63,512 nucleotides of DNA from a virus (IMGVR_UViG_3300006802_000101:1-63512), one strand, 5' to 3'; counted from the stretch's first letter, positions 9,503 to 20,904 are shown. The notes: generated by a model from the sequence alone, not told the origin. Numbers and translations: made by a program.

Positions 9503-10168
9503 TTATTGAAATGCTTTTGTTATGTCTTCTGCTGAAGCGTTTTTAATTTGTTCTATCACCCTTGCCTTCTTCTGATATATTTCATCGTTCCAAGACTCGT
9601 TGCGTAGGAATGTTTCAGGGTGTTTCCTGTATTGGACATCAGGTTGCGACTTCTTATAATGGGGTATATAGGCCATGCATGCAGACTTTTTATTCTTACT
9701 AAGTTTATTCCACAGTGATTGTGCCTTTGACTTGCCAACCTTCTTATCGTATAAGTCCCAAAACTCTTCAAATCCATTATCATCATCTACTTTTGTTTTA
9801 TTTTTCCACCTTGCATCAGCACCTCTCTTGGCTGTTTCTTTTCTCTTGTTTGCTGCATCAAGTGATTCTTTTATATACTCTGAGTACAAGAGACCATTTT
9901 CAACAAACAACAATCCAAACTCACTACAACAATCATCAATGAATGTCTTTGCAGTTTCAACATCTGTCTGCATTCTTTTGGCTAGTGCTGGCAAAATACC
10001 CTTCCCATCAATCTTAATAGAGTTGCCTTCAGCAACACACAAAGACTCTAGAATGATATAATAAAAACCATAACCCTCTGCACCATATACAGACATCATA
10101 GACTCTACAGACATACTGCTCCAATTGGTAGCATAATGTTTAAACCAAAATGTATTTGTATCTCTCAT
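9503..10168 (-). CDS. phage replication initiator (Lin1244/DUF4373-like N-terminus)
   Basis: WFKH...YGAEGYGFYYIILE N-terminus; C-terminal FEEFWDLYDKKVGK...HPETFLRNESWNDE. Confidence 0.75.
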   Translation of the reverse strand: MRDTNTFWFKHYATNWSSMSVESMMSVYGAEGYGFYYIILESLCVAEGNSIKIDGKGILPALAKRMQTDVETAKTFIDDCCSEFGLLFVENGLLYSEYIKESLDAANKRKETAKRGADARWKNKTKVDDDNGFEEFWDLYDKKVGKSKAQSLWNKLSKNKKSACMAYIPHYKKSQPDVQYRKHPETFLRNESWNDEIYQKKARVIEQIKNASAEDITKAFQ

Positions 10169-12241: not shown

Positions 12242-12862
12242 TTACTTAGATGATTTATTGAAACTATCTAAAGCCTCACGTAGCTTTTTCTTTTGAGTAT
12301 CAGTAGCTGTGTAAGACTTCATACGCTCAAGAACAATATCGCCTTTACCATCATTGATAAACTCAATCATTGCTTTGAATGTTTTGGCATCAAGCTTTTT
12401 TGTAGGTGATGATGATGATAGTGATTGTTTCTTAGGCTGAGCTTGAGCAACATACTTGTTGTCATCCCAATCACCCAAGAATATGTCAGCAGAAAATCCT
12501 AGTTTAGATAATCCTTTTGTCAAAGCATCAGTTGATACCTTCTTAAAGCAATCATCATCTAGCTTGCCAGACTTGTTGTGTGTTGCGATAGATGAATTGA
12601 TAGCAAATGTTTTCATTTGTTGGTCTTTACCCCTCCACCAAAAGGTAGCCTGGTATCCTAGTAGACCATCAGTGACCATGTAAAAATTCTCTTCATAAAC
12701 ACCCCAACCTTCACCACAGGAACCGAATTGTTCGGTTGCACACATAATCTGGTACTGAGCGTTGATACTTGTAAACTTACGACCGAAGTTCACTTCTTTG
12801 GTATACTTTGGATTCGTCACAGAGACTTGGCTCCAAATAGCCATGTTGTTTTTCTTTTCCAT
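12242..12862 (-). CDS. single-strand annealing protein (Rad52/Sak-like)
   Basis: TEQFG..GEGWG...KKVSTDALTKGLSKLGFSADIFLG; adjacent to the exonuclease gene. Confidence 0.7.
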   Translation of the reverse strand: MEKKNNMAIWSQVSVTNPKYTKEVNFGRKFTSINAQYQIMCATEQFGSCGEGWGVYEENFYMVTDGLLGYQATFWWRGKDQQMKTFAINSSIATHNKSGKLDDDCFKKVSTDALTKGLSKLGFSADIFLGDWDDNKYVAQAQPKKQSLSSSSPTKKLDAKTFKAMIEFINDGKGDIVLERMKSYTATDTQKKKLREALDSFNKSSK

Positions 12863-13882: not shown

Positions 13883-14017
13883 TTATAGTTTGTTTTTCTT
13901 TTTAAATAGATAAATCTTTCTAGCACTAATACCTAGAGATTTAGCGGCATCCTCAACAGTTTTACATAATTTCAATGCTCTTATCATTTCTTTTTCGTGT
14001 AACTCTTTTAATGTCAT
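13883..14017 (-). CDS. Fis-like HTH microprotein (44 aa, not in ORF track)
   Basis: MTLKELHEKEMIRALKLCKTVEDAAKSLGISARKIYLFKKKNKL; AAKxLGIS HTH_8-type motif. Confidence 0.7.
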   Translation of the reverse strand: MTLKELHEKEMIRALKLCKTVEDAAKSLGISARKIYLFKKKNKL

Positions 14018-14028
14018 ACTTATTTGTT

Positions 14029-14430
14029 TTATAAAAATATATCCTCTTTCTTATTGTGATTGTATATAGCTTTCTGATTGAACAACCATCCAATCAATGT
14101 GGCTGTTCTTTGAGTGTTTACATTCCTACATAAGTCAAGAACATAAACATTCTCTTTTTCATCATACCATATACCAACGTTATTATTATCGGACTTGTCC
14201 GAAATCCTATCAACAAAGCCAACTATACAATCAAGTATCTCTTGGTCTGAACCACTACAACATGTAGTATCGTCTGTTGATACTGCTACTGAATAGCCTT
14301 TGTTCACTGGAACTCCATCTCTAGTTAGTGTAATTCCTCCACTTTTTGCACCATTGAATAACTCAAGTGCTAATTTGTTTTTAGTTTCTTTATCCATTAT
14401 ATGTGTCCTCCTATTTTTAATTGTTCGCAT
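14029..14430 (-). CDS. hypothetical early protein (true start probably 14397, MDKETK)
   Basis: GG.T...GYSVA...VGIW...LD...QKAIY pattern; contains the SDKS palindrome. Confidence 0.65.
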   Translation of the reverse strand: MRTIKNRRTHIMDKETKNKLALELFNGAKSGGITLTRDGVPVNKGYSVAVSTDDTTCCSGSDQEILDCIVGFVDRISDKSDNNNVGIWYDEKENVYVLDLCRNVNTQRTATLIGWLFNQKAIYNHNKKEDIFL

Positions 14431-14684
14431 TCATATCTCCATTCAGAATCTGCTTCAGGAATATTCATACCCCTGTAATCATCTACCCCACTCCCATACT
14501 CAAAGTTAGCTTTACTGATAGCTTCATCTATTTTGTCTATAAACAAATCTTCGTTGTAGTTTAAATAACCATTAAGTCCATCAGAAAATTCTGATGTATA
14601 ATCTTCGTAGTCATCTTTATCTATATCAATCTCTACCTCTGCGTACTTGTGGTACACGCTTCTTTGCATAATTTTAACTTTCAT
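14397..14684 (-). CDS. hypothetical acidic early protein
   Basis: 95-aa ORF in a packed early operon. Confidence 0.65.
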   Translation of the reverse strand: MKVKIMQRSVYHKYAEVEIDIDKDDYEDYTSEFSDGLNGYLNYNEDLFIDKIDEAISKANFEYGSGVDDYRGMNIPEADSEWRYECEQLKIGGHI

Positions 14685-14922
14685 AATACTCTGGTTTATC
14701 GTTAGTTATATCTAATGTATTCTCTAGTAGTGTTTCTACTTCATCATATCTTTCGTTATAGAAATCTTGTGCCTCTTCTTTAAAGACAATACAAGTCCCA
14801 TCTGATAGACCATCTTGAATAGTTTCAAATGTATCTTCGTGAAAGTTTAGTTCGGTGAGTTGTGTAGCTATCTCGCTAATAAACTCAATCCATTTGTCGT
14901 TTGGTACTCTGTGTTTACTCAT
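14674..14922 (-). CDS. hypothetical acidic early protein
   Basis: 82-aa ORF coupled to neighbours. Confidence 0.65.
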   Translation of the reverse strand: MSKHRVPNDKWIEFISEIATQLTELNFHEDTFETIQDGLSDGTCIVFKEEAQDFYNERYDEVETLLENTLDITNDKPEYYES

Positions 14923-15392
14923 CTTGTGAAAGGTTTTAAATATATTGGTTCGTTCTTGTTTGCTACACTATGTTTCTCTCCAATGTAGTAATTCCAATAA
15001 GCAGTGATTGTATCTTCATGCTTGTATTCATCAGGCATACATTGTGGTGGAGGAATAAAGTCAAGTCTAGGCATATCTCTTGGAGGAGTTGATAATAACT
15101 CTGCACACTTGATAATGCTGAGATGTTGCTTGCCATAACGTCTAGTGTACTCATCACCCAAAGCCATCATATGTAACCAAAGCCAAGAGTAATGTTGTGT
15201 ACTCTGCCTTGTCCATATGGTTGATGGATGATTGTAGTGTGCTTTCTTGTATGGTACATGCTCTCCATTATCGTAATGATGGTGTGCTGTACATAGCATT
15301 TGAGCTGACTCAAGTATCATCTTGACTTTGTGTTTGTCATAGAAGTATGATGCACATACCTCTGGGTCTTCGTGTAAATAAAATATGTTCAT
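14919..15392 (-). CDS. pyrimidine-dimer DNA glycosylase/endonuclease V-like protein
   Basis: MNIFYL...DKHKVKMILESAQML...HYNHPSTIW...EYTRRYGKQH...PPQCMPDEYK. Confidence 0.75.
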   Translation of the reverse strand: MNIFYLHEDPEVCASYFYDKHKVKMILESAQMLCTAHHHYDNGEHVPYKKAHYNHPSTIWTRQSTQHYSWLWLHMMALGDEYTRRYGKQHLSIIKCAELLSTPPRDMPRLDFIPPPQCMPDEYKHEDTITAYWNYYIGEKHSVANKNEPIYLKPFTR

Positions 15393-15394
15393 AG

Positions 15395-15661
15395 TTATTG
15401 TATTGCGTATCCACTACATCTAGGTAGGAAATGTTTATTGTTTGATTTCATCATACCACCAATATCGTGTTGTATGGTTGATATTATTTCATGTTCACTT
15501 ATTCCGTTGTCTTCGCAGTACGTAATATATCCCTCTAAATCTCTAGCGAAATCATCATGCACAACCAATGTGAGCATCATCTCTGTTCTGTAGTTCATAC
15601 TATTCCAAAATACTGGAGCGTATTTTTCCATCATGTTGAATATGTTTCCTCTTGTTACCAT
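15395..15661 (-). CDS. hypothetical early protein
   Basis: 88-aa ORF ending TIQHDIGG...FLPR. Confidence 0.65.
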   Translation of the reverse strand: MVTRGNIFNMMEKYAPVFWNSMNYRTEMMLTLVVHDDFARDLEGYITYCEDNGISEHEIISTIQHDIGGMMKSNNKHFLPRCSGYAIQ

Positions 15662-15663
15662 AG

Positions 15664-16266
15664 TTATCTGTAGTTTTGTTTAATCTTTCTAAATCTTTCC
15701 CAAGTGCTACTCTGTAATAGTACCGGACTGATACCCAGTATGTTAGCAGTATACTTGTATGTATCTCTGAAGAAGTTGTATTGGTTGTTTGTCATACCAG
15801 CATAGTCTTCTTCTTGTATCCATCTACCAAGAGCAACTGATAGGGCATGCCTGTCAATAGTCACCATATCAGCTTTCTCAGGATGTAGCATATTCTCAAA
15901 GAATGATACAATCTTACGACCTTTGAGTATTGACTTGATGCAATCTTCACACCCATCACAATTAATGATGTCTTCAGCTTTCTTGACGAATGTTTTCATA
16001 TGCTTACCATCACCGGTTTCAATGAAGTGTATAGCACACTTTTTGTTTTGCTCCCAAGATTTGAGTGGACTGAGAGCTGAAACAATACCACAAGCAACTG
16101 ATACAGGTATGTCGTAGTCAGATGATAGTGATTTACAGAACGCATGTGCCTCTGCATACCAATCGTGTCTGTCGGACTTGTCCGATAAATTGTAAATCTT
16201 GAGTATGTTGTTCTTCACTTTGGTTCGGGATAACGTATTACCCTTGTATTGAATGCGTGTAATCAT
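15664..16266 (-). CDS. conserved phage early protein (DUF7178-like, possible glycosylase fold)
   Basis: WY..AH...ACGIVSALSP..SWEQN...KIVSF...VTIDRHA...LQSSTW pattern. Confidence 0.65.
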   Translation of the reverse strand: MITRIQYKGNTLSRTKVKNNILKIYNLSDKSDRHDWYAEAHAFCKSLSSDYDIPVSVACGIVSALSPLKSWEQNKKCAIHFIETGDGKHMKTFVKKAEDIINCDGCEDCIKSILKGRKIVSFFENMLHPEKADMVTIDRHALSVALGRWIQEEDYAGMTNNQYNFFRDTYKYTANILGISPVLLQSSTWERFRKIKQNYR

Positions 16267-16460
16267 CTCTTTTGTTTTTTGGTTTTTAAATATCTGTTCT
16301 CTTGTATGTTATCGTAGAAGAATCCGGTTACAAGGAAGTAGTTATCCCAAGTAATCTTTGATGGTCTACTTCTATTTGCATAGTGTTCCCTCATTCTATG
16401 TAACATCTCTTCTTTAGTTTCGGACTTGTCCGAATACTCTTCCTCTGTATCTTCTGTCAT
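16263..16460 (-). CDS. hypothetical early protein
   Basis: 65-aa ORF, ATGA-coupled; contains the SDKS palindrome. Confidence 0.55.
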   Translation of the reverse strand: MTEDTEEEYSDKSETKEEMLHRMREHYANRSRPSKITWDNYFLVTGFFYDNIQENRYLKTKKQKR

Positions 16461-16553
16461 ATTGAAAATAAGTTTACTATTATTAATGATATGATAGCTA
16501 TAAATCCCACATACATAACTACGTGTTCAGCTATTTCTATGTAATGCTTTCTA

Positions 16554-16958
16554 TTATCTCTTTTCATTTTCTACACTTAAATAAGGGTTTGTCATTGAAA
16601 TTTCTAGTTTACTGATATGTTCCACATAATCATACCAATCGCCCTGTTCTGAATGTATTGCTCCATCTTCTCCCATACAGACCATAAACGTATCTAATTC
16701 ACAATAGTCTGATATAAGTCTGTTTACTGCGTCAACATCAGGGTAACCATCATACCATTTTAAGTAATCTCCAACCCATACAATCCAATATTCTGTATGA
16801 GTTACTTTAACATTGTTGTCTTTATCAAACTCATACCAATCGTATGTCCTCTCATACCATTTAAAACTATCTGTTAAGTCGTGTTCTTTTAGAACTTTAT
16901 CTACTGCTTGTCGGTGTTCTTTTTTGACACCAAATATTACTTCACTTCTATATCCCAT
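16554..16958 (-). CDS. hypothetical early protein (MGYRSEV...LKWYDGYPDV type)
   Basis: 134-aa ORF with A-rich leader. Confidence 0.7.
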   Translation of the reverse strand: MGYRSEVIFGVKKEHRQAVDKVLKEHDLTDSFKWYERTYDWYEFDKDNNVKVTHTEYWIVWVGDYLKWYDGYPDVDAVNRLISDYCELDTFMVCMGEDGAIHSEQGDWYDYVEHISKLEISMTNPYLSVENEKR

Positions 16959-16979
16959 AATTTAATTTAGTTTTAGTTG

Positions 16980-17234
16980 TTAAACTCCATATTGTGTCCA
17001 TCTGTTAATGTGTTCTATCGTATCAGTCAAGTCCTCAATACTATCTTGTTGTCTGTGTATTAGTTCATCTTCAATTAGTTCGTCAATCATCTGATACTTT
17101 TCCATATAGGGATAGTGTTCTATATGATTACCAAACCACTCACTATACAATCCCTCTACTTGTGAACGATTAAATTGTTCATAGTACTCTCTTTGGGAGT
17201 CTTCCCAATCTTGTAACAAGTCTTTCTTTTTCAT
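16980..17234 (-). CDS. hypothetical acidic early protein
   Basis: 84-aa ORF. Confidence 0.6.
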   Translation of the reverse strand: MKKKDLLQDWEDSQREYYEQFNRSQVEGLYSEWFGNHIEHYPYMEKYQMIDELIEDELIHRQQDSIEDLTDTIEHINRWTQYGV

Positions 17235-17458
17235 TTGAATTGTATTGCTTTTGATAGGTTGTCGTTTTCTGTTTTAATATTCTTACCATCTCTCAACTCT
17301 ATGTAGTGAGCGTGGTTGTACTTTACTTGGTCAAGTAACCGGTCAAGGTCTACTTGGTCGTAGTCGTACTTACCATTGTCAACAAAGTTGGCGATAGTTC
17401 TTAAGGTTGATACTACATCATCTTTGTAGTATTTCCATTGTGCTTTTCTAGTATCCAT
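17231..17458 (-). CDS. hypothetical early protein
   Basis: 75-aa ORF. Confidence 0.6.
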   Translation of the reverse strand: MDTRKAQWKYYKDDVVSTLRTIANFVDNGKYDYDQVDLDRLLDQVKYNHAHYIELRDGKNIKTENDNLSKAIQFK

Positions 17459-17460
17459 AG

Positions 17461-17835
17461 TTATTTAGTTTTCTTTAGTTTAATTAAATCTTCTTCTATT
17501 AACATCTCAAGTATCTTTTTTGCTGACGTGTGGTGGTCGTAACCCATTCTCACATCAACAAGTTCGAGTTCACGTCCATTAACTTCAAATTCATACTCAT
17601 CTATGTCCCAAGCTTCCGGCTCATTACAATACATATCGTCTAGCTTGTGTTCCAAGGTTGTCCATAAATCATCGTATTGTTCTTCTGTTATTGTTGTTGC
17701 CTTTAGTTTATCCATAATGTTCTGTAATTTAGTTTTAGTTTTAGTTAATAATTTTCGGACATGTCCGATAGTTTTCTGTTCTAGTTTGTCTAGAAGGTAT
17801 GCTTCCCTCATAGACCATTCAAATCTAATCTTCAT
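17461..17835 (-). CDS. hypothetical early protein (possible alternative start at 17715)
   Basis: 124-aa ORF; internal AACTAAAACTAAATTA leader-like tract before MDKLKA. Confidence 0.55.
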   Translation of the reverse strand: MKIRFEWSMREAYLLDKLEQKTIGHVRKLLTKTKTKLQNIMDKLKATTITEEQYDDLWTTLEHKLDDMYCNEPEAWDIDEYEFEVNGRELELVDVRMGYDHHTSAKKILEMLIEEDLIKLKKTK

Positions 17836-17837
17836 AA

Positions 17838-18155
17838 TTAAAATATTGCTACTTTTTCTAATAATTCTCTTGTGTATTTCCTAACAATTCTTTCTTTGTA
17901 CGTTTTATGTAACTCTAATTTGTACTTGTGTTCTAATGCTGAAGGTGAAATAGATTTAAAATACTTGTGTCTTTCAGCTTGTATCTCTTGATTGTACTCA
18001 CCATATTCAGTGATATATTCCATGTAGTTAGGGAGAGAACCACCTAAAAACAGAGCTATTTCTCTGTGTATTTCAAACATTTCTTTTGCTTTTTCTTCTA
18101 TGTATTTATTAGCTTTTAATTCTAGTTGTTTTTGGATTTCATTAGTGTCTTTCAT
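17838..18155 (-). CDS. hypothetical early protein
   Basis: 105-aa ORF. Confidence 0.6.
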   Translation of the reverse strand: MKDTNEIQKQLELKANKYIEEKAKEMFEIHREIALFLGGSLPNYMEYITEYGEYNQEIQAERHKYFKSISPSALEHKYKLELHKTYKERIVRKYTRELLEKVAIF

Positions 18156-18552
18156 TGTTATTATTTAATTGGTTAATAAATTCTACTACTGATTCGTATG
18201 TAAGTTCAAGGTCAAATTCATAGTGTGATATTTCTTCATAATATTCTTTTGGAAATATATCTTCCAGATTATCCCAATCATACTTACCTACTTCTTCTAT
18301 TTCGTATGTACTATCCATACTTCTAATCTTGTTTATCACCGGCATAAGCCAATCCCAAGATACATTGTAAGATAGTTCGTGTTCTTCATACCAACTCCCA
18401 CTATTAAACTCTCTAAAGTAGTAGTTTACCTTACCACTTTTAAAGACTTCTGTTGGGAGTCCCATAAATTCTGCTATGAGTTTGTTGTGTGTTATTACTT
18501 CTTCCATATTAACAATATATTTCGTCCGGCATATTCTGTTGTAGGTCATCAA
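18142..18552 (-). CDS. hypothetical early protein (true start probably MEEVIT)
   Basis: NKLIAEFMG...LSYNVSWDWLMPVINKI motif. Confidence 0.65.
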   Translation of the reverse strand: MMTYNRICRTKYIVNMEEVITHNKLIAEFMGLPTEVFKSGKVNYYFREFNSGSWYEEHELSYNVSWDWLMPVINKIRSMDSTYEIEEVGKYDWDNLEDIFPKEYYEEISHYEFDLELTYESVVEFINQLNNNNERH

Positions 18553-18790
18553 TCTTCTTGCAATATTCTACATACTTCCAACACTCTGATAGAGTTTTGT
18601 ATGCGTATTGCCAAGCTTCAATATCATTGTCAGCGTGTGCTTCTTCCATTTCTTCTGATGCACCAATCCAATGGTAATACATAGTATCGTTGTAGTCGCC
18701 TCCAGATTGATTGTGAAATGCGTCTGAAATTTTGTTGTAAAGTTCTTCACAGCGTAATTGCATTAATGTTAACTTTTCTCGTTTAGTCAT
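18509..18790 (-). CDS. hypothetical early protein
   Basis: 93-aa ORF. Confidence 0.6.
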   Translation of the reverse strand: MTKREKLTLMQLRCEELYNKISDAFHNQSGGDYNDTMYYHWIGASEEMEEAHADNDIEAWQYAYKTLSECWKYVEYCKKIDDLQQNMPDEIYC

Positions 18791-18795
18791 AATAA

Positions 18796-19008
18796 TTATT
18801 TGTTAAGGTTAGAGTTTTCGGACTTGTCCGATTTAATTAAATTGTTTAGTTGCTCAATGCTATCGCACTCGTTTACCAATGTATTCCAAACGTGGTAATA
18901 CTTTAGTGGTGTCTTGATAGCTGATGCCTTGAGCCGTGATAGTGATGAAATGTATCCACCACCACTTCTCATATTAGTTGGTGCTAATGTTCCTGTTTTA
19001 GTTTTCAT
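18796..19008 (-). CDS. hypothetical early protein
   Basis: 70-aa ORF; SDKS palindrome near the C-terminus. Confidence 0.55.
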   Translation of the reverse strand: MKTKTGTLAPTNMRSGGGYISSLSRLKASAIKTPLKYYHVWNTLVNECDSIEQLNNLIKSDKSENSNLNK

Positions 19009-19229
19009 AATCCCATCGCATAATCCGTTATTCTGTCTTCCATCATATCTGTATCAAAGAATCCAAAGTAGAAATCTGTTATATCATCTCCGTTAGCCAA
19101 CACCTTGCTGATTGTTACAATAGTTTCAGCTGGTTGCTCCCACGTAGCTGGTGCGTAATAAAAGTCATACTCTATCTCTAGTATGTTATCATTTATTTCT
19201 TCCGAATATGTTCCCGTATGTGTTCTCAT
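19005..19229 (-). CDS. hypothetical acidic early protein
   Basis: 74-aa ORF, ATGA-coupled. Confidence 0.6.
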   Translation of the reverse strand: MRTHTGTYSEEINDNILEIEYDFYYAPATWEQPAETIVTISKVLANGDDITDFYFGFFDTDMMEDRITDYAMGL

Positions 19230-19543
19230 AATAACTGATAGTATTTGTGTTGCATACTTTCAATCAAGTGTCTGCCGTTAGCCGTGTGAAAGCCGTAGCT
19301 ATGTGTATGTAAGCTATCCATAGGTACATTTGCTAGTAGCAATTCCATAAGGTTGTACTCGTTGCAATCCATATCATCAGCGACCTCGTTGATAGCTTGT
19401 GCTAGTAGGTCGGTGTTGTGTCTAGGTTTCTGTCCTAGTTCCTCAGTAATGTATCGTTCTACAATACTTCCGGTTAATCTGTAATCATTTTCGGACTTGT
19501 CCGATAAAACTTCTGCTCTCATAGGTCTAATATTTTTTACCAT
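19226..19543 (-). CDS. hypothetical early protein
   Basis: 105-aa ORF; SDKS palindrome near the N-terminus. Confidence 0.6.
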   Translation of the reverse strand: MVKNIRPMRAEVLSDKSENDYRLTGSIVERYITEELGQKPRHNTDLLAQAINEVADDMDCNEYNLMELLLANVPMDSLHTHSYGFHTANGRHLIESMQHKYYQLL

Positions 19544-19625
19544 TAATTACTCGGTATGCGTTAGCTCTTGCTTTAGCTACCTCTTTCCTTACTTTGATAG
19601 TTCTGAATGTACTCATATCTTTTTA

Positions 19626-19925
19626 TTAGTGGATTATTATTCTTACTCCGTACTTGCTTTCATTTGGAGCGTCCATTGTAAACTCAATCTCAAACCAATG
19701 GTGGTCTTTATTCCACTCACATTTGTAGTCGTTTACATAAGCAAACTTAGAGGCATTGTCAAACTTTTGCACAAGTTCGCTGAATGTGTAAGGTTGTTTT
19801 CTTCCGTTCCATTGCAAACATACGGCTCTGGTATCAACTGATACATTGAAAAAGTCTTCAATAGTCAATTGTAAATCTGCTTTTAAAAATTCTTCGAAAA
19901 GATTTAGGCTCTCTAATTTAGTCAT
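19626..19925 (-). CDS. hypothetical early protein immediately downstream of the hammerhead ribozyme
   Basis: 99-aa ORF with A-rich leader. Confidence 0.65.
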   Translation of the reverse strand: MTKLESLNLFEEFLKADLQLTIEDFFNVSVDTRAVCLQWNGRKQPYTFSELVQKFDNASKFAYVNDYKCEWNKDHHWFEIEFTMDAPNESKYGVRIIIH

Positions 19926-19942
19926 AATAATAATTTAGTTTA

Positions 19943-20026
19943 GTTACAGACACTAAGGTTCCTGTCGTTTATTAGCTGGTACTAATTACCTTAGTGTTTC
20001 GACCTCTTTGGTCTCATCAGTGTAAC
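19943..20026 (-). ncRNA. type I hammerhead ribozyme
   Basis: minus strand: stem I GUUACA / core CUGAUGA / stem II GACC-AAAGA-GGUC / GAAA / stem III CACUAAGGU...ACCUUAGUG / GUC cleavage triplet (C at 19949) / UGUAAC; all core nucleotides canonical; intergenic. Confidence 0.92.
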
Positions 20027-20046
20027 ATATCGGACTTGTCCGAAAA

Positions 20047-20466
20047 CTATGCGATTTGCATAGCTTTCTCTAGTCCCTTACCTATTGCTTGTACTTGCTT
20101 ATCTGATAGGTCAGTCTGCTTCTCTAGTAGCTTTTGTATCTGCTCGATAGTATCAACTACTTTCTCTCTCTTGACATTGTCCACAAAGATATACTCTCCT
20201 GTTTTTCTATCTGATAGTTTTAGCTTGACACTTTTACCCTCATAATCCTCACTTGAAGTGATACGCTTGAGTGTACGTTGTAGGGTGTTTAGTCCCGTTG
20301 ACTTACTACCTTGTTCCATATAGAAGTATTGTGCTACGTCTAGAATGGTGTTGCCTTTGTCTTTGACTAGGCTTTCGCTAGTCAGTTCCGTTACTTTCTT
20401 GTCAGCCTTGCTGATTGAAAGGATTGCAGTTCTAAGGTCTTTTGCAGTTGGTGATAAATGTTTCAT
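20047..20466 (-). CDS. hypothetical early protein
   Basis: 139-aa ORF, first gene after the promoter at 20513-20544. Confidence 0.7.
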   Translation of the reverse strand: MKHLSPTAKDLRTAILSISKADKKVTELTSESLVKDKGNTILDVAQYFYMEQGSKSTGLNTLQRTLKRITSSEDYEGKSVKLKLSDRKTGEYIFVDNVKREKVVDTIEQIQKLLEKQTDLSDKQVQAIGKGLEKAMQIA

Positions 20467-20512
20467 AAGATAATTTAATTTAATTGATTTAGTTACTTGT
20501 TTAATTCTTTTG

Positions 20513-20544
20513 CAAAGCTATGAATAATTTTTGACATATCCAAA
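20513..20544 (-). promoter_or_regulatory. early promoter P2 (Bacteroidota type)
   Basis: TTTG-N20-TAGCTTTG on the minus strand. Confidence 0.75.
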
Positions 20545-20577
20545 TTGTGCCGGACTTTTTTTTCGGACTTGTCCGAT

Positions 20578-20904
20578 TTATGCCCATCTATATCTAGAGG
20601 CTCCCTTGTCTCGACCTCTAGCATCTAGCCTATTGTTTAGCCTAGTGTAATATACTTGAGTCGCTAGTATCTTGATTACCCCGTTCTCTCGGTAACAAGT
20701 GTATAAATCCCCGTTACGTCTGAAGTGATACTTTTGTCCGGTTAAGCCGTTGGTCTTGAGTTTATAACCTTTGTAGTTATCTAGTAAACCCTCTTGCTTC
20801 TCTCTAGACTTTGCCCAAGCTAACTTGAGTGCTACGGACTTGTCCGAAATTTTGGTTGTACGGATTACGTACCACATATACTTGAATATATCGCTCTTAC
20901 TCAT
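20578..20904 (-). CDS. basic hypothetical early protein (first early gene)
   Basis: 108 aa; KYMW...SVALKLAWAK pattern; contains an SDKS palindrome variant. Confidence 0.65.
   Translation of the reverse strand: MSKSDIFKYMWYVIRTTKISDKSVALKLAWAKSREKQEGLLDNYKGYKLKTNGLTGQKYHFRRNGDLYTCYRENGVIKILATQVYYTRLNNRLDARGRDKGASRYRWA

What the first reader, a model, noticed from the sequence alone, without database searches (positions are those of the whole stretch)
14189..20847. A 14-bp palindrome written into the early genes nine times, always in the same orientation (encodes S-D-K-S)
Seen: TCGGAC-TT-GTCCGA occurs 7 times exactly (14189, 16172, 16420, 18818, 19491, 20030, 20563) and twice with one mismatch (17755, 20834). 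All copies lie in a 6.7-kb early region, and I saw none in the other ~57 kb. Six copies sit inside unrelated ORFs in the same frame (ISDKSD, LSDKSD, YSDKSE, KSDKSE, LSDKSE, ISDKSV), using TCG/TCC codons that look rare here, so the DNA rather than the protein seems to be selected. One copy is 3 nt from the hammerhead and one is just upstream of the P2 -33 element. The central TT is always on the plus (template) strand; the single exception is the fully symmetric CATG copy. Established: dispersed intragenic palindromes of this size are how parS/ParB, NBS/Noc, matS/MatP and SBS/SlmA mark DNA domains, and C-TT-G forms a stable two-base-loop DNA mini-hairpin. Inference: an undescribed marking system for the early (possibly first-injected) region. 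It could be sites for a phage regulator (wHTH 10541, Fis-like 13883) or a host factor, a defence decoy, or a strand-specific ssDNA/RNA hairpin signal for entry, antitermination or processing.
Basis: partly seen in the sequence, partly recalled or inferred. Interest (0 to 1): 0.9.

Follow-up and report, generated by a model that had tools for sequence, protein, structure and literature searches.

The report
Repeated palindrome marking phage early genes
An uncultured marine phage has written one 14-base palindrome nine times through its first-expressed genes, most likely as docking sites for one of its own early proteins, an arrangement already seen in other phages but here with an unknown protein family as the probable reader.

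Summary
TCGGAC-TT-GTCCGA occurs 7 times exactly and twice with one change, all on the + strand between 14189 and 20847. There is no other copy in the 63.5-kb phage genome at up to 2 mismatches (chance expectation 0.09).

Selection acts on the nucleotides, not the peptide. All 6 SDKS peptides use the same rare codons. A syntenic relative, G001, carries 11 copies at non-homologous places, in variable linkers and small insertions of orthologous proteins. Ten strain contigs add 39 more sites.

The motif is an accessory feature. It is absent from a third syntenic relative (G002) and from 22 of 22 further terminase relatives. It co-occurs strictly with two early genes, gp108 and gp139. gp139 belongs to no known family, is predicted to form a homodimer, and keeps one basic helix nearly unchanged between W and G001, which share the motif.

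My best reading (about 50%) is an operator or "stoperator-like" array read by gp139. The main rival (about 30%) is an RNA hairpin in the early mRNA, supported by the one-strand asymmetry (centre AA in 55 of 59 sites) and a conserved hammerhead next to one copy.

Comparable arrays are published (Cluster A stoperators, Cluster O 17-bp dyad repeats). Earlier notes of this scan report similar arrays on other phage DNA.

The parts
14189..14202 (-). motif copy, exact; inside ORF 14029-14430, codon 77, frame SDKS
16172..16185 (-). motif copy, exact; inside DUF7178 gene 15664-16266, codon 28, frame SDKS; kept at the same place in strains L359 and L364
16420..16433 (-). motif copy, exact; inside ORF 16263-16460, codon 10, frame SDKS
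17755..17768 (-). motif copy with centre AT (fully symmetric); ORF 17461-17835, other frame; strains L363 and L366 have centre AA at this place
18818..18831 (-). motif copy, exact; ORF 18796-19008, codon 60 of 70, frame SDKS
19491..19504 (-). motif copy, exact; ORF 19226-19543, codon 14, frame SDKS
20030..20043 (-). motif copy, exact; intergenic, 3 nt after the stop of gp139 and 3 nt before hammerhead stem I
20563..20576 (-). motif copy, exact; intergenic, 1 nt after the stop of gp108 and 18 nt upstream of the -33 TTTG of promoter P2
20834..20847 (-). motif copy with one arm change (sense GTCCGT); gp108 codon 20, frame SDKS; other strains carry their copy elsewhere in the same gene, in a 6-codon insertion
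20047..20466 (-). gp139, candidate reader: unknown family, predicted homodimer, basic helix 57-70 nearly unchanged between W and G001; found only in motif-bearing phages
20578..20904 (-). gp108, first gene of the block; found only in motif-bearing phages; low-confidence model, no fold match
20513..20544 (-). promoter P2 of Bacteroidota type (TTTG, spacer, TAGCTTTG) in front of gp139
   Evidence: pattern match only
19944..20026 (-). type I hammerhead ribozyme next to copy 20030; core kept in 5 strain loci, stem II covaries
   Evidence: (RF03152, 25.1 bits, below gathering 56.3)

Best explanation
The 14-bp dyad TCGGAC-AA-GTCCGA (sense strand) is an iterated binding site on double-stranded DNA. 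Its reader is a phage-encoded dimeric protein, most likely gp139 (20047-20466), possibly acting with gp108.

gp139 is made from promoters P1 and P2 at the head of the block. It would bind the copy beside its own promoter and the copies spread through about 6.7 kb of downstream genes. In that way it would autoregulate and then throttle or shut off transcription of the whole early block, as operators plus 'stoperators' do in Cluster A mycobacteriophages.

Because the genome is tightly packed, sites are placed wherever proteins tolerate them. These places are termini, variable linkers and small insertions, in the one reading frame (S-D-K-S-D/E) that gives a harmless hydrophilic peptide.

Shown: the sites, their selection at nucleotide level, their turnover, and their strict co-occurrence with gp139 and gp108. 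The gp139 dimer is predicted, not shown. Inferred: that gp139 binds the site, that binding is to duplex DNA, and that the effect is repression.
For: 1. Dyad symmetry. The GGA/TCC core never varied among the 59 sites found at one arm mismatch or fewer, a search that could not find more diverged copies. Changes fall only at positions 1, 2, 6-9 and 14. All but one of the centre letters are A or T, and the 3 bases on each side are almost only A or T: 46, 47 and 41 of 47 on the 5' side, and 41, 44 and 40 of 47 on the 3' side.

2. Co-occurrence. gp139 and gp108 profiles hit only W-lineage and G001 loci among all loci held. They hit none of G002, G022, G023, G027, G028, G007, G008 or L190. Every locus with gp139 has motif copies.

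3. W and G001 gp139 are 37% identical overall but keep S54 K55 S56 L59 N60 T61 L62 Q63 R64 T65 K67 R68 unchanged, and both phages use the identical motif.

4. The gp139 model has mean pLDDT 77. It shows four helices, a beta-hairpin at 80-96 and two C-terminal helices. The homodimer is supported: ipSAE 0.69 (median of three runs; one run scored 0.13) against a best control of 0.02; the mark was reached by 20 of 30 proteins solved as pairs of one chain and 1 of 23 proteins solved as single chains; the runs agree in at least 92% of contacts; partner pLDDT at least 61; my own alignment was used. The interface is formed by the N- and C-terminal helices, which leaves most of helix 57-70 and the hairpin free.

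5. A copy always sits at the head of the gp139 gene. It lies 18 nt upstream of P2 in W and at codons 10-14 of the gene in G001.

6. Distant family members encode T-DKS-V, A-DKS-A and V-DKS-T in the same N-terminal extension. These are the peptides expected from palindromes whose outer two pairs changed symmetrically; this holds in 3 of 4 further subgroups. This is an inference from protein sequence only.

7. Orientation-biased site arrays in transcribed regions are known for DNA-bound repressors (PMC9283540, passages).
Against: A symmetric dimer needs no strand rule, yet the asymmetry is strong. 55 of 59 sites read AA, and none TT, on the sense strand. This includes at least 8 sites free of the SDKS frame. 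The 3' flank is W-A-A (A in 44 and 39 of 47) while the 5' flank is only T-enriched.

Every copy lies in transcribed sequence downstream of P1, so nothing distinguishes DNA from RNA by position.

gp139 has no HTH or other nucleic-acid-binding family. There was no Pfam hit at E up to 1 and no PDB profile hit. Foldseek gave nothing at or below E 0.001, and the best VIA Z was 7.0 to unrelated helical proteins. MarR-type chains appeared only at Foldseek E 1.6-2.5 with TM 0.18-0.27.

Two unrelated phage lineages (G007 and G008; G017) carry the same core without any gp139 or gp108 homologue.

No binding was tested.
Confidence: 0.5

Rival explanations
1. The signal is read in the early mRNA. UCGGA-CAAG-UCCGA forms a 5-bp hairpin with a CAAG loop and a 3' A-rich tail. 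It tags the long P1/P2 transcript for a phage protein (gp139 or gp108 as an RNA binder) or for a nuclease. The function would be transcript processing, stability, timed decay of early messages (as T4 RegB does with GGAG; recalled), or antitermination.
For: - Strict one-strand form: AA in 55 of 59 sites and TT in 0. At least 8 of the AA sites are intergenic or out of frame.
- The 3' flank W-A-A is asymmetric.
- All copies lie downstream of the first promoter.
- The first copy sits near the 5' end of the transcript, and it moves within gp108 rather than being lost.
- One copy lies 3-4 nt in front of a hammerhead in W and 5 strain loci, so RNA cleavage is part of this operon.
- Changes concentrate in loop positions 6-9 and the terminal pair.
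- The inferred outer-pair changes in distant gp139 genes stay complementary.
- RNA-library contigs cover parts of the block, though contigs alone do not show transcription.
Against: - The hairpin is weak: about -5.3 kcal/mol, with z from -0.3 to -2.6 in 44-nt contexts.
- The stem is not extended by the flanks. The -1/+1 pair is complementary in only 5 of 47 distinct sites.
- The 5-bp stem is kept by sequence, with no compensatory change seen in DNA.
- In G007 and G008 the same core occurs with AA, TT and AT centres in one transcription direction.
- The strand uniformity could come from how copies spread. Identical 26-nt site-plus-flank duplicates occur in L358 and L364, and Lys rather than Leu is preferred in the coded peptide.
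Confidence: 0.3
2. The reader is a host factor or a structure-specific activity rather than a phage protein. Candidates are a Bacteroidota DNA- or RNA-binding protein, a single-strand DNA hairpin on the template or non-template strand (ops/RfaH-like, or an N4-like hairpin promoter), or a defence decoy.
For: - The same core palindrome is enriched in phages that share no proteins with W: G007 18 sites, G008 11 sites, G017 3 sites.
- The strand rule in the W lineage fits a single-strand reading.
- The palindrome is about the size of N4 early-promoter hairpins (recalled).
Against: - G002 and 22 of 22 further relatives, including 4 complete genomes, lack it and carry no substitute palindrome. A host factor would be expected to serve them too.
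- G007 and G008 have AGGAG ribosome sites and resemble Vibrio phages at about 30%, so they probably infect another phylum.
- No RNA polymerase was detected in the 3322-aa, 2847-aa or 1352-aa proteins.
- Most sites are inside genes, not in front of them.
- The bacterial genome scan gave 78 sites of the 18-mer, against about 35 expected. Most were tips of longer hairpins, and no genome was dense in them.
- The sharing with G007 and G008 was found by searching 2.9 million contigs for this very word, so a chance coincidence of half-sites is plausible.
Confidence: 0.1
3. The copies are mainly footprints or junctions of a recombination or insertion process that shuffles early gene cassettes. Comparable cases are T4-type PeSL cassettes (recalled) and the 17-bp direct repeat, a separate sequence from the dyad repeat, that flanks Corndog gene 14. 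Any regulatory role would be secondary.
For: - Copies arrive as small insertions: 4, 6 and 12 codons in orthologues.
- Site-plus-flank duplicates occur in L358 and L364.
- The order of gp108 and gp139 is swapped between W and G001, with copies at the junctions.
- Strains differ by cassette replacements in this block.
- The phage encodes a PDDEXK nuclease next to a conserved 206-aa protein.
- PMC4351075 reports a gene flanked by a 17-bp direct repeat.
Against: - The strain joints seen (13883/14042, 14401/14680, 16962/17004, 17835/18508, 19950/20013 and others) do not coincide with motif copies. The nearest are 17 and 67 nt away.
- 14 bp is short for homologous exchange.
- Orthologous copies are kept at 97% identity against 84% in 40-nt flanks (8 pairs). 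33 of 39 strain sites are exact. Both argue for ongoing selection on the site itself.
Confidence: 0.1

Closest known systems
Operators and stoperators of Cluster A mycobacteriophages (L5 gp71-type repressor; PMC9283540, passages read)
   Same: One short site occurs many times through transcribed regions of a phage genome, in promoters and between genes. Its orientation correlates with the direction of transcription. It is read by a phage-encoded protein that stops initiation and elongation.
   Different: Stoperators are asymmetric 13-mers bound by a monomer, lie in short intergenic spaces over the whole genome, and belong to an immunity repressor of temperate phages. Here the site is a dyad and the candidate reader is a predicted dimer of an unknown family. 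Most copies are inside genes in one frame and are confined to one block. No lysogeny genes were seen, though I did not search for them systematically.
17-bp dyad repeat TGTTCGG-NNN-CCGAACA of Cluster O mycobacteriophages (Corndog; PMC4351075, passages read)
   Same: A perfect inverted repeat with invariant arms and a variable centre is present tens of times. It lies between genes and inside genes near their ends. The centre is biased with respect to transcription direction (14 TTT against 6 AAA in one operon).
   Different: The sequence, length (7-3-7) and host differ, and the Cluster O repeat is spread over the whole genome. Here the array is limited to the early block and a candidate reader gene can be named by co-occurrence.
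parS/ParB, KorB-OB and phage N15 dispersed centromere sites (recalled, not read here)
   Same: Dispersed palindromes of 13-16 bp, some inside genes, that mark a DNA domain and can silence nearby promoters.
   Different: No ParB/KorB-like protein was detected among the proteins scanned. The copies are much denser (9 in 6.7 kb) and obey a strand rule.
Lambda N/nut boxB and T4 RegB targets (recalled, not read here)
   Same: Small RNA elements confined to early transcripts, read by an early phage protein, with the first element close to the 5' end.
   Different: Lambda has two nut sites with boxA. RegB cuts a 4-nt word in ribosome sites. No arginine-rich N-like or RegB-like protein was identified here.

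Membership tests
Cluster A mycobacteriophage operator/stoperator system | Many copies of one short site through transcribed regions, with orientation tied to transcription | tested here: met
   W has 9 copies, G001 has 11 and the strain loci have 39. 55 of 59 read AA on the sense strand.
Cluster A mycobacteriophage operator/stoperator system | Asymmetric 13-mer bound by a monomeric two-domain repressor | tested here: not met
   The site is a 6-2-6 dyad. The candidate reader gp139 is predicted to be a homodimer.
Cluster A mycobacteriophage operator/stoperator system | Reader homologous to the L5 gp71-type immunity repressor | tested here: inconclusive
   No Pfam, PHROG or PDB family was found for gp139 or gp108. 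I made no direct comparison with gp71.
Cluster A mycobacteriophage operator/stoperator system | Binding blocks transcription initiation and elongation | not testable with these tools
   Needs EMSA, reporter assays or infected-cell RNA-seq.
Cluster O-type iterated dyad repeats (descriptive class) | Invariant inverted arms, variable centre, tens of copies between and inside genes, centre biased by transcription direction | tested here: met
   compared with passages of PMC4351075. The copy number is lower (9-11) and the copies are confined to one block.
parS/ParB-like domain marking | ParB/KorB/Noc-type reader encoded by the phage or host | tested here: inconclusive
   No such Pfam hit among 22 W proteins scanned. 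Not all ORFs were scanned, and the host is unknown.
N4-type hairpin promoters for a virion RNA polymerase | Virion RNA polymerase gene present | tested here: inconclusive
   The 3322-aa, 2847-aa and 1352-aa proteins give no RNA polymerase family, no PDB sequence match and no NADFDGD-like motif. Their folds were not examined.
N4-type hairpin promoters for a virion RNA polymerase | Few hairpins placed upstream of early genes | tested here: not met
   7 of 9 copies lie inside ORFs, at codons 10 to 77.
RAGATH-1 hammerhead (Rfam RF03152) | Score at or above the gathering threshold, with the 5' hairpin matching the model | tested here: not met
   25.1 bits against gathering 56.3, E 1.2. The match rests on the hammerhead core.
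MarR-type winged-helix dimer (for gp139) | Sequence or fold match to winged helix-turn-helix regulators | tested here: inconclusive
   The order of helices, beta-hairpin and terminal dimer helices resembles MarR; this is my reading. Pfam gave no HTH at E up to 1. MarR-type chains appeared only at Foldseek E 1.6-2.5. None were among the 50 best VIA rows, where Z was 7.0 or less.

The most novel reading that the evidence does not exclude
gp139 (with gp108) founds a new family of hairpin-specific RNA-binding dimers. The phage tags its whole early transcript with CAAG hairpins, which are inserted in frame into its own genes. The protein can then time the processing, protection or destruction of early messages together with the adjacent hammerhead. 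This would be an RNA-level early-to-middle switch in Bacteroidota phages, whose hairpin outer pairs co-vary across the family.
Probability: 0.2. Interest if true: 0.8.

Novelty: new variant of a known kind. Interest (0 to 1): 0.5.

Why it matters
If gp139 reads these sites, this gives a new DNA-binding (or RNA-binding) protein family with a precisely known 14-bp target. It would also show how phages of Bacteroidota, whose gene regulation is poorly known, control a whole early operon.

The case also shows clearly that a regulatory word can be forced into coding sequence. It uses rare codons and one frame, sits in linkers and small insertions, and moves between positions within a single gene.

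The array is small, sharply defined and tied to two candidate genes. That makes the open question of what the iterated palindromes of phage early regions do directly testable here.

Tried and rejected
Leads that went nowhere:
- Virion RNA polymerase hairpin promoters: no polymerase was detected and most sites are intragenic.
- Host iterated palindrome: the genome-contig scan of TTTCGGACWWGTCCGAAA gave 78 sites in 74 stretches over many phyla, and no genome was dense in them.
- Published sequence: a full-text search for six forms of the motif returned only p53 response-element and other unrelated papers (11 papers hold a term, 10 listed). I therefore know of no printed description of this word in phages, within that library.
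- Cultured relatives: blastn of the early block and tblastn of gp139, P0047 and P0051 against 50,697 phage records gave nothing useful.
- Fis-like 13883 and wHTH 10541 as readers: rejected by co-occurrence.
- DenV-like 14919-15392 and DUF7178 15664-16266: these are shared by W and G001, but homologues also occur in motif-less G023 and G027. DUF7178 resembles HhH-GPD glycosylases in the Atlas model (TM 0.63).
- Shared reader with G007, G008 and G017: tblastn, phmmer and profile searches found none.
- An equivalent palindrome in G002, G022, G023, G027 or G028: none found. The TGATAATCA cluster of G002 lies in the control region and matches W 21133, so it is a different array.
- Fold searches for gp139 and gp108: no convincing match.
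- Reads: only assembled contigs were available. RNA-library runs X19 and X20 cover parts of the block, but no ends, strand or level can be read from them. Parts without cover mean nothing.
- Supplementary files of papers were not consulted. Figure 8 and the site tables of PMC4351075 might refine the comparison.

Full report
**Observation.** The window is a complete 63,512-bp virus record with 35.5% G+C. A search for TCGGACTTGTCCGA with up to 2 mismatches finds 9 places, all with the TT (or AT) form on the + strand. Seven are exact: 14189, 16172, 16420, 18818, 19491, 20030 and 20563. Copy 17755 has centre AT, and copy 20834 has one arm change. Nothing else matches, and shuffles give 0.09. Genes from 92 to about 23,300 lie on the minus strand, so the messenger reads TCGGACAAGTCCGA.

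Six of the 7 copies inside my gene set are in the frame S-D-K-S, and two copies are intergenic. TCG and TCC are the two rarest serine codons (2.7% and 4.6%). All 6 SDKS peptides of the phage use the same 12 bases. Resampling synonymous codons 300 times never produced the 12-base core, against 7 observed. This includes the hammerhead 3 nt away and the -33 element 18 nt downstream of copy 20563.

**What the phage is.** Promoters of the Bacteroidota type (TTTG, spacer, TAnnTTTG) stand at minus-strand 23243, 20520 and 1714 and plus-strand 31456 and 59570. Start codons lack Shine-Dalgarno sequences (my reading). The minus-strand arm encodes a primase-helicase, a DnaA domain IV protein, a PDDEXK nuclease and an SSB-like protein. 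The plus-strand arm encodes the virion, with giant proteins of 3322 and 2847 residues in which I found no RNA polymerase. The motif-bearing block is the run of small genes behind P1/P2. It ends before the replication genes.

**Relatives.** G001 (52.7 kb) and G002 (64.6 kb) are syntenic with the window and about equally distant: terminase 70% and 70%, capsid 66% and 66%.
- G001 has 8 exact and 3 one-mismatch copies between 15948 and 26977, all in the same orientation. Six of its 8 coding copies are in the SDKS frame.
- Together with W, 12 of 15 coding copies share that frame (P about 3e-4 for a given frame).
- The G001 copies are not at the W positions. Two lie in orthologues of W 9503-10168 and 12242-12862, where W has no copy. 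They sit in the least conserved linker, one of them in a 4-residue insertion. One lies in a 12-residue N-terminal extension of the gp139 orthologue.
- G002 has no copy at up to 2 mismatches and no other iterated palindrome.
- Of 22 further terminase relatives, 4 of them complete, 0 have the motif at up to 1 mismatch. The 4 complete ones have no substitute.

The array is therefore an accessory feature of two sub-lineages.

**Strains.** Ten metagenome loci that encode gp139 at 71-99% identity carry 39 sites, of which 33 are exact. All have the sense-strand form. The centres are AA, except GA once and AC twice. With W and G001 this makes 59 sites: 55 AA, 2 AC, 1 AT, 1 GA and 0 TT. The counts are not independent, because many sites are orthologous; there are 47 distinct 44-mers.
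- W's odd CATG copy is CAAG in two strains.
- Arm changes occur only at positions 1, 2, 6, 9 and 14. Because I searched at one arm mismatch or fewer, more diverged copies would have been missed.
- Flanks are almost purely A or T for three bases on both sides. The 3' side is W-A-A (A in 44 and 39 of 47), while the 5' side has T in only 27 and 22 of 47.
- The -1 and +1 bases are complementary in only 5 of 47 distinct sites, so the stem does not extend.
- For 8 strain sites with clearly orthologous flanks, the motif is 97% identical to W against 84% in the flanks. Choosing pairs by flank identity makes this contrast conservative.
- In gp108 the copy has moved. W has it at codon 20, through a one-codon change. 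Several strains instead have it about 15 codons further on, in a 6-codon insertion.

**Who reads it.** Three W genes have homologues in G001 but in none of the 5 complete motif-less relatives: gp108 (20578-20904), gp139 (20047-20466) and a 134-residue protein (16554-16958).

gp108 and gp139 are the first two genes behind P1 and P2, and they are neighbours in G001 in the opposite order. gp139 is flanked by copies 20563 and 20030. The family is rare, with 15 representative clusters among 1.84 billion proteins. It has no Pfam or PDB relative.

The gp139 model (pLDDT 77) has four helices, a beta-hairpin and two C-terminal helices. The stretch S54-R68, on the fourth helix, is almost unchanged between W and G001 although the proteins are 37% identical.

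Two copies of gp139 are predicted to pair. The score is 0.69 (median of three runs, one of which scored 0.13) against a best control of 0.02. The mark was reached by 20 of 30 proteins solved as pairs of one chain and 1 of 23 solved as single chains. The runs agree in at least 92% of contacts, and partner pLDDT is at least 61. My own alignment was used, so the counts hold only roughly. The interface uses the terminal helices and leaves the conserved helix and the hairpin exposed. This layout recalls MarR-type dimers. That is my reading of the topology only, and the fold searches do not confirm it. gp108 gave a poor model (pLDDT 61) and no match.

**A hint of co-variation.** Several distant gp139 homologues have a Lys-rich N-terminal extension like that of G001. 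In it they encode T-D-K-S-V, A-D-K-S-A and V-D-K-S-T, with K replaced by T in two cluster members. If the core GGAC-AA-GTCC is kept in frame, these are exactly the residue pairs that palindromes with complementary outer dinucleotides would give. A fourth subgroup, L-D-M-S-A, does not fit. I could not obtain the DNA, so this stays an inference. It suggests that a copy at the head of the gp139 gene is a family trait, and that the outer two pairs change symmetrically.

**The same word elsewhere.** Scans of IMG/VR found two phages, G007 (79 kb) and G008 (75.6 kb). They are related to each other and, at about 30%, to Vibrio phage SHOU24. They carry 18 and 11 sites of TCGGAC-WW-GTCCGA (one arm mismatch or fewer), mostly in short spacers after a stop codon and about 8 nt before an AGGAG ribosome site. 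AT, TT and AA centres are mixed within one transcription direction. A third contig, G017, has 3 copies. None shares a detectable protein with W.

I found these phages by searching 2.9 million contigs for this very word, and many phage lineages seem to have their own iterated palindrome (published cases below; scan notes). A chance coincidence of a 6-bp half-site is therefore plausible. I do not take it as evidence for a shared reader.

**DNA or RNA.**
- For RNA: the one-strand form at every one of at least 8 sites not constrained by the SDKS frame, the asymmetric 3' flank, the restriction to transcribed sequence, and the conserved neighbourhood of a hammerhead whose stem II co-varies among strains.
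- Against RNA: the hairpin is weak at -5.3 kcal/mol, and G007 and G008 use both orientations.
- Against the weight of the strand rule: copies seem to spread by copying. L358 and L364 carry identical 26-nt duplicates. In coding copies, AAG (Lys) is gentler on the protein than TTG (Leu).

I put duplex-DNA operators read by gp139 at about 0.5 and the RNA reading at about 0.3. A host or single-strand reader and a mainly recombinational origin get about 0.1 each.

**Comparison with the known.** The closest functional model is the operator/stoperator system of Cluster A mycobacteriophages (PMC9283540, passages). This locus fails two of its defining features, the asymmetric site and the monomeric reader, so it works like that system at most and is not a member.

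The closest description is the 17-bp dyad repeat of Cluster O mycobacteriophages (PMC4351075, passages). Corndog has 34 copies with invariant arms and a centre biased by transcription direction. Many copies lie inside genes near their ends, and the function is unknown.

Earlier notes of this scan (AI notes that I did not check) report similar early-arm palindrome arrays, with a suspected first early protein as reader, in several other uncultured phages. The kind of thing has thus been found before on other DNA.

What is particular here:
- the sharp co-occurrence with a two-gene module of unknown family;
- the mostly intragenic, one-frame placement;
- the documented relocation within one gene;
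- the strict strand form;
- the hammerhead next door.

**Verdict.** This is a real, strongly selected, lineage-restricted site array. It is most likely a regulator-operator system of a known general kind with a new reader family. Interest is moderate (0.5), and higher if the RNA reading proves right.

Noticed in passing
window 19944-20026 (-); also L357, L361, L362, L363, L366: A type I hammerhead sits between gp139 and the next gene. Its core, CUGAUGA ... CGAAAC, is kept in 5 strain loci, and stem II co-varies (GACC/GGUC against GUUC/GAAC). It scores below Rfam's threshold (RF03152, 25.1 bits against 56.3). Strains L358-L360 and L364 have other sequence at this place.
   Followed up: partly
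G007 (L168-L171) and G008 (L172-L175): Two phages that resemble Vibrio-phage SHOU24 carry 18 and 11 sites of the same core palindrome. It forms part of a roughly 38-nt intercistronic cassette: TAACTT, palindrome, A-n-ATTT-n-AGGAG. Two of the cassettes directly follow tRNA genes. In G007 one perfect sigma-70 promoter lies 36 nt upstream of the first site.
   Followed up: partly
L190 (G017) 446, 1340, 2223: A third unrelated viral contig has three copies of TTTCGGACATGTCCGAAA spaced about 890 bp apart.
   Followed up: no
window 15664-16266 (-): The DUF7178 protein belongs to a large, mostly viral family. The Atlas model of this protein resembles HhH-GPD/OGG-type DNA glycosylases (TM 0.63). It sits next to a T4 endonuclease V-like gene (14919-15392, Pyr_excise).
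   Followed up: partly
window 13883-20013 (strain contigs of runs X18, X20, X5): Natural strains differ from the window by cassette deletions and replacements in the early block. Examples: 13883-14042 is lost, 17835-18508 is lost, and 19950-20013 inside the hammerhead is replaced by 74 other letters.
   Followed up: no
window 21133; G002 446-727: A separate array, with core TGATAATCA inside longer palindromes, lies in the non-coding control region upstream of the early promoters. It is shared by W and by motif-less G002 (4 copies), so it is independent of the SDKS motif.
   Followed up: partly
L236 7167-7268; L209, L197, L224: In bacterial genomes the 18-mer occurs three times at 42-bp spacing in a Tannerellaceae MAG. 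It also lies inside a repeated element of Acidaminococcaceae MAGs. These are probably unrelated repeat families.
   Followed up: no
window 16554-16958 (-): A third gene (134 aa) is shared only by W and G001 among the 7 genomes compared. It has no family and I did not study it further.
   Followed up: no
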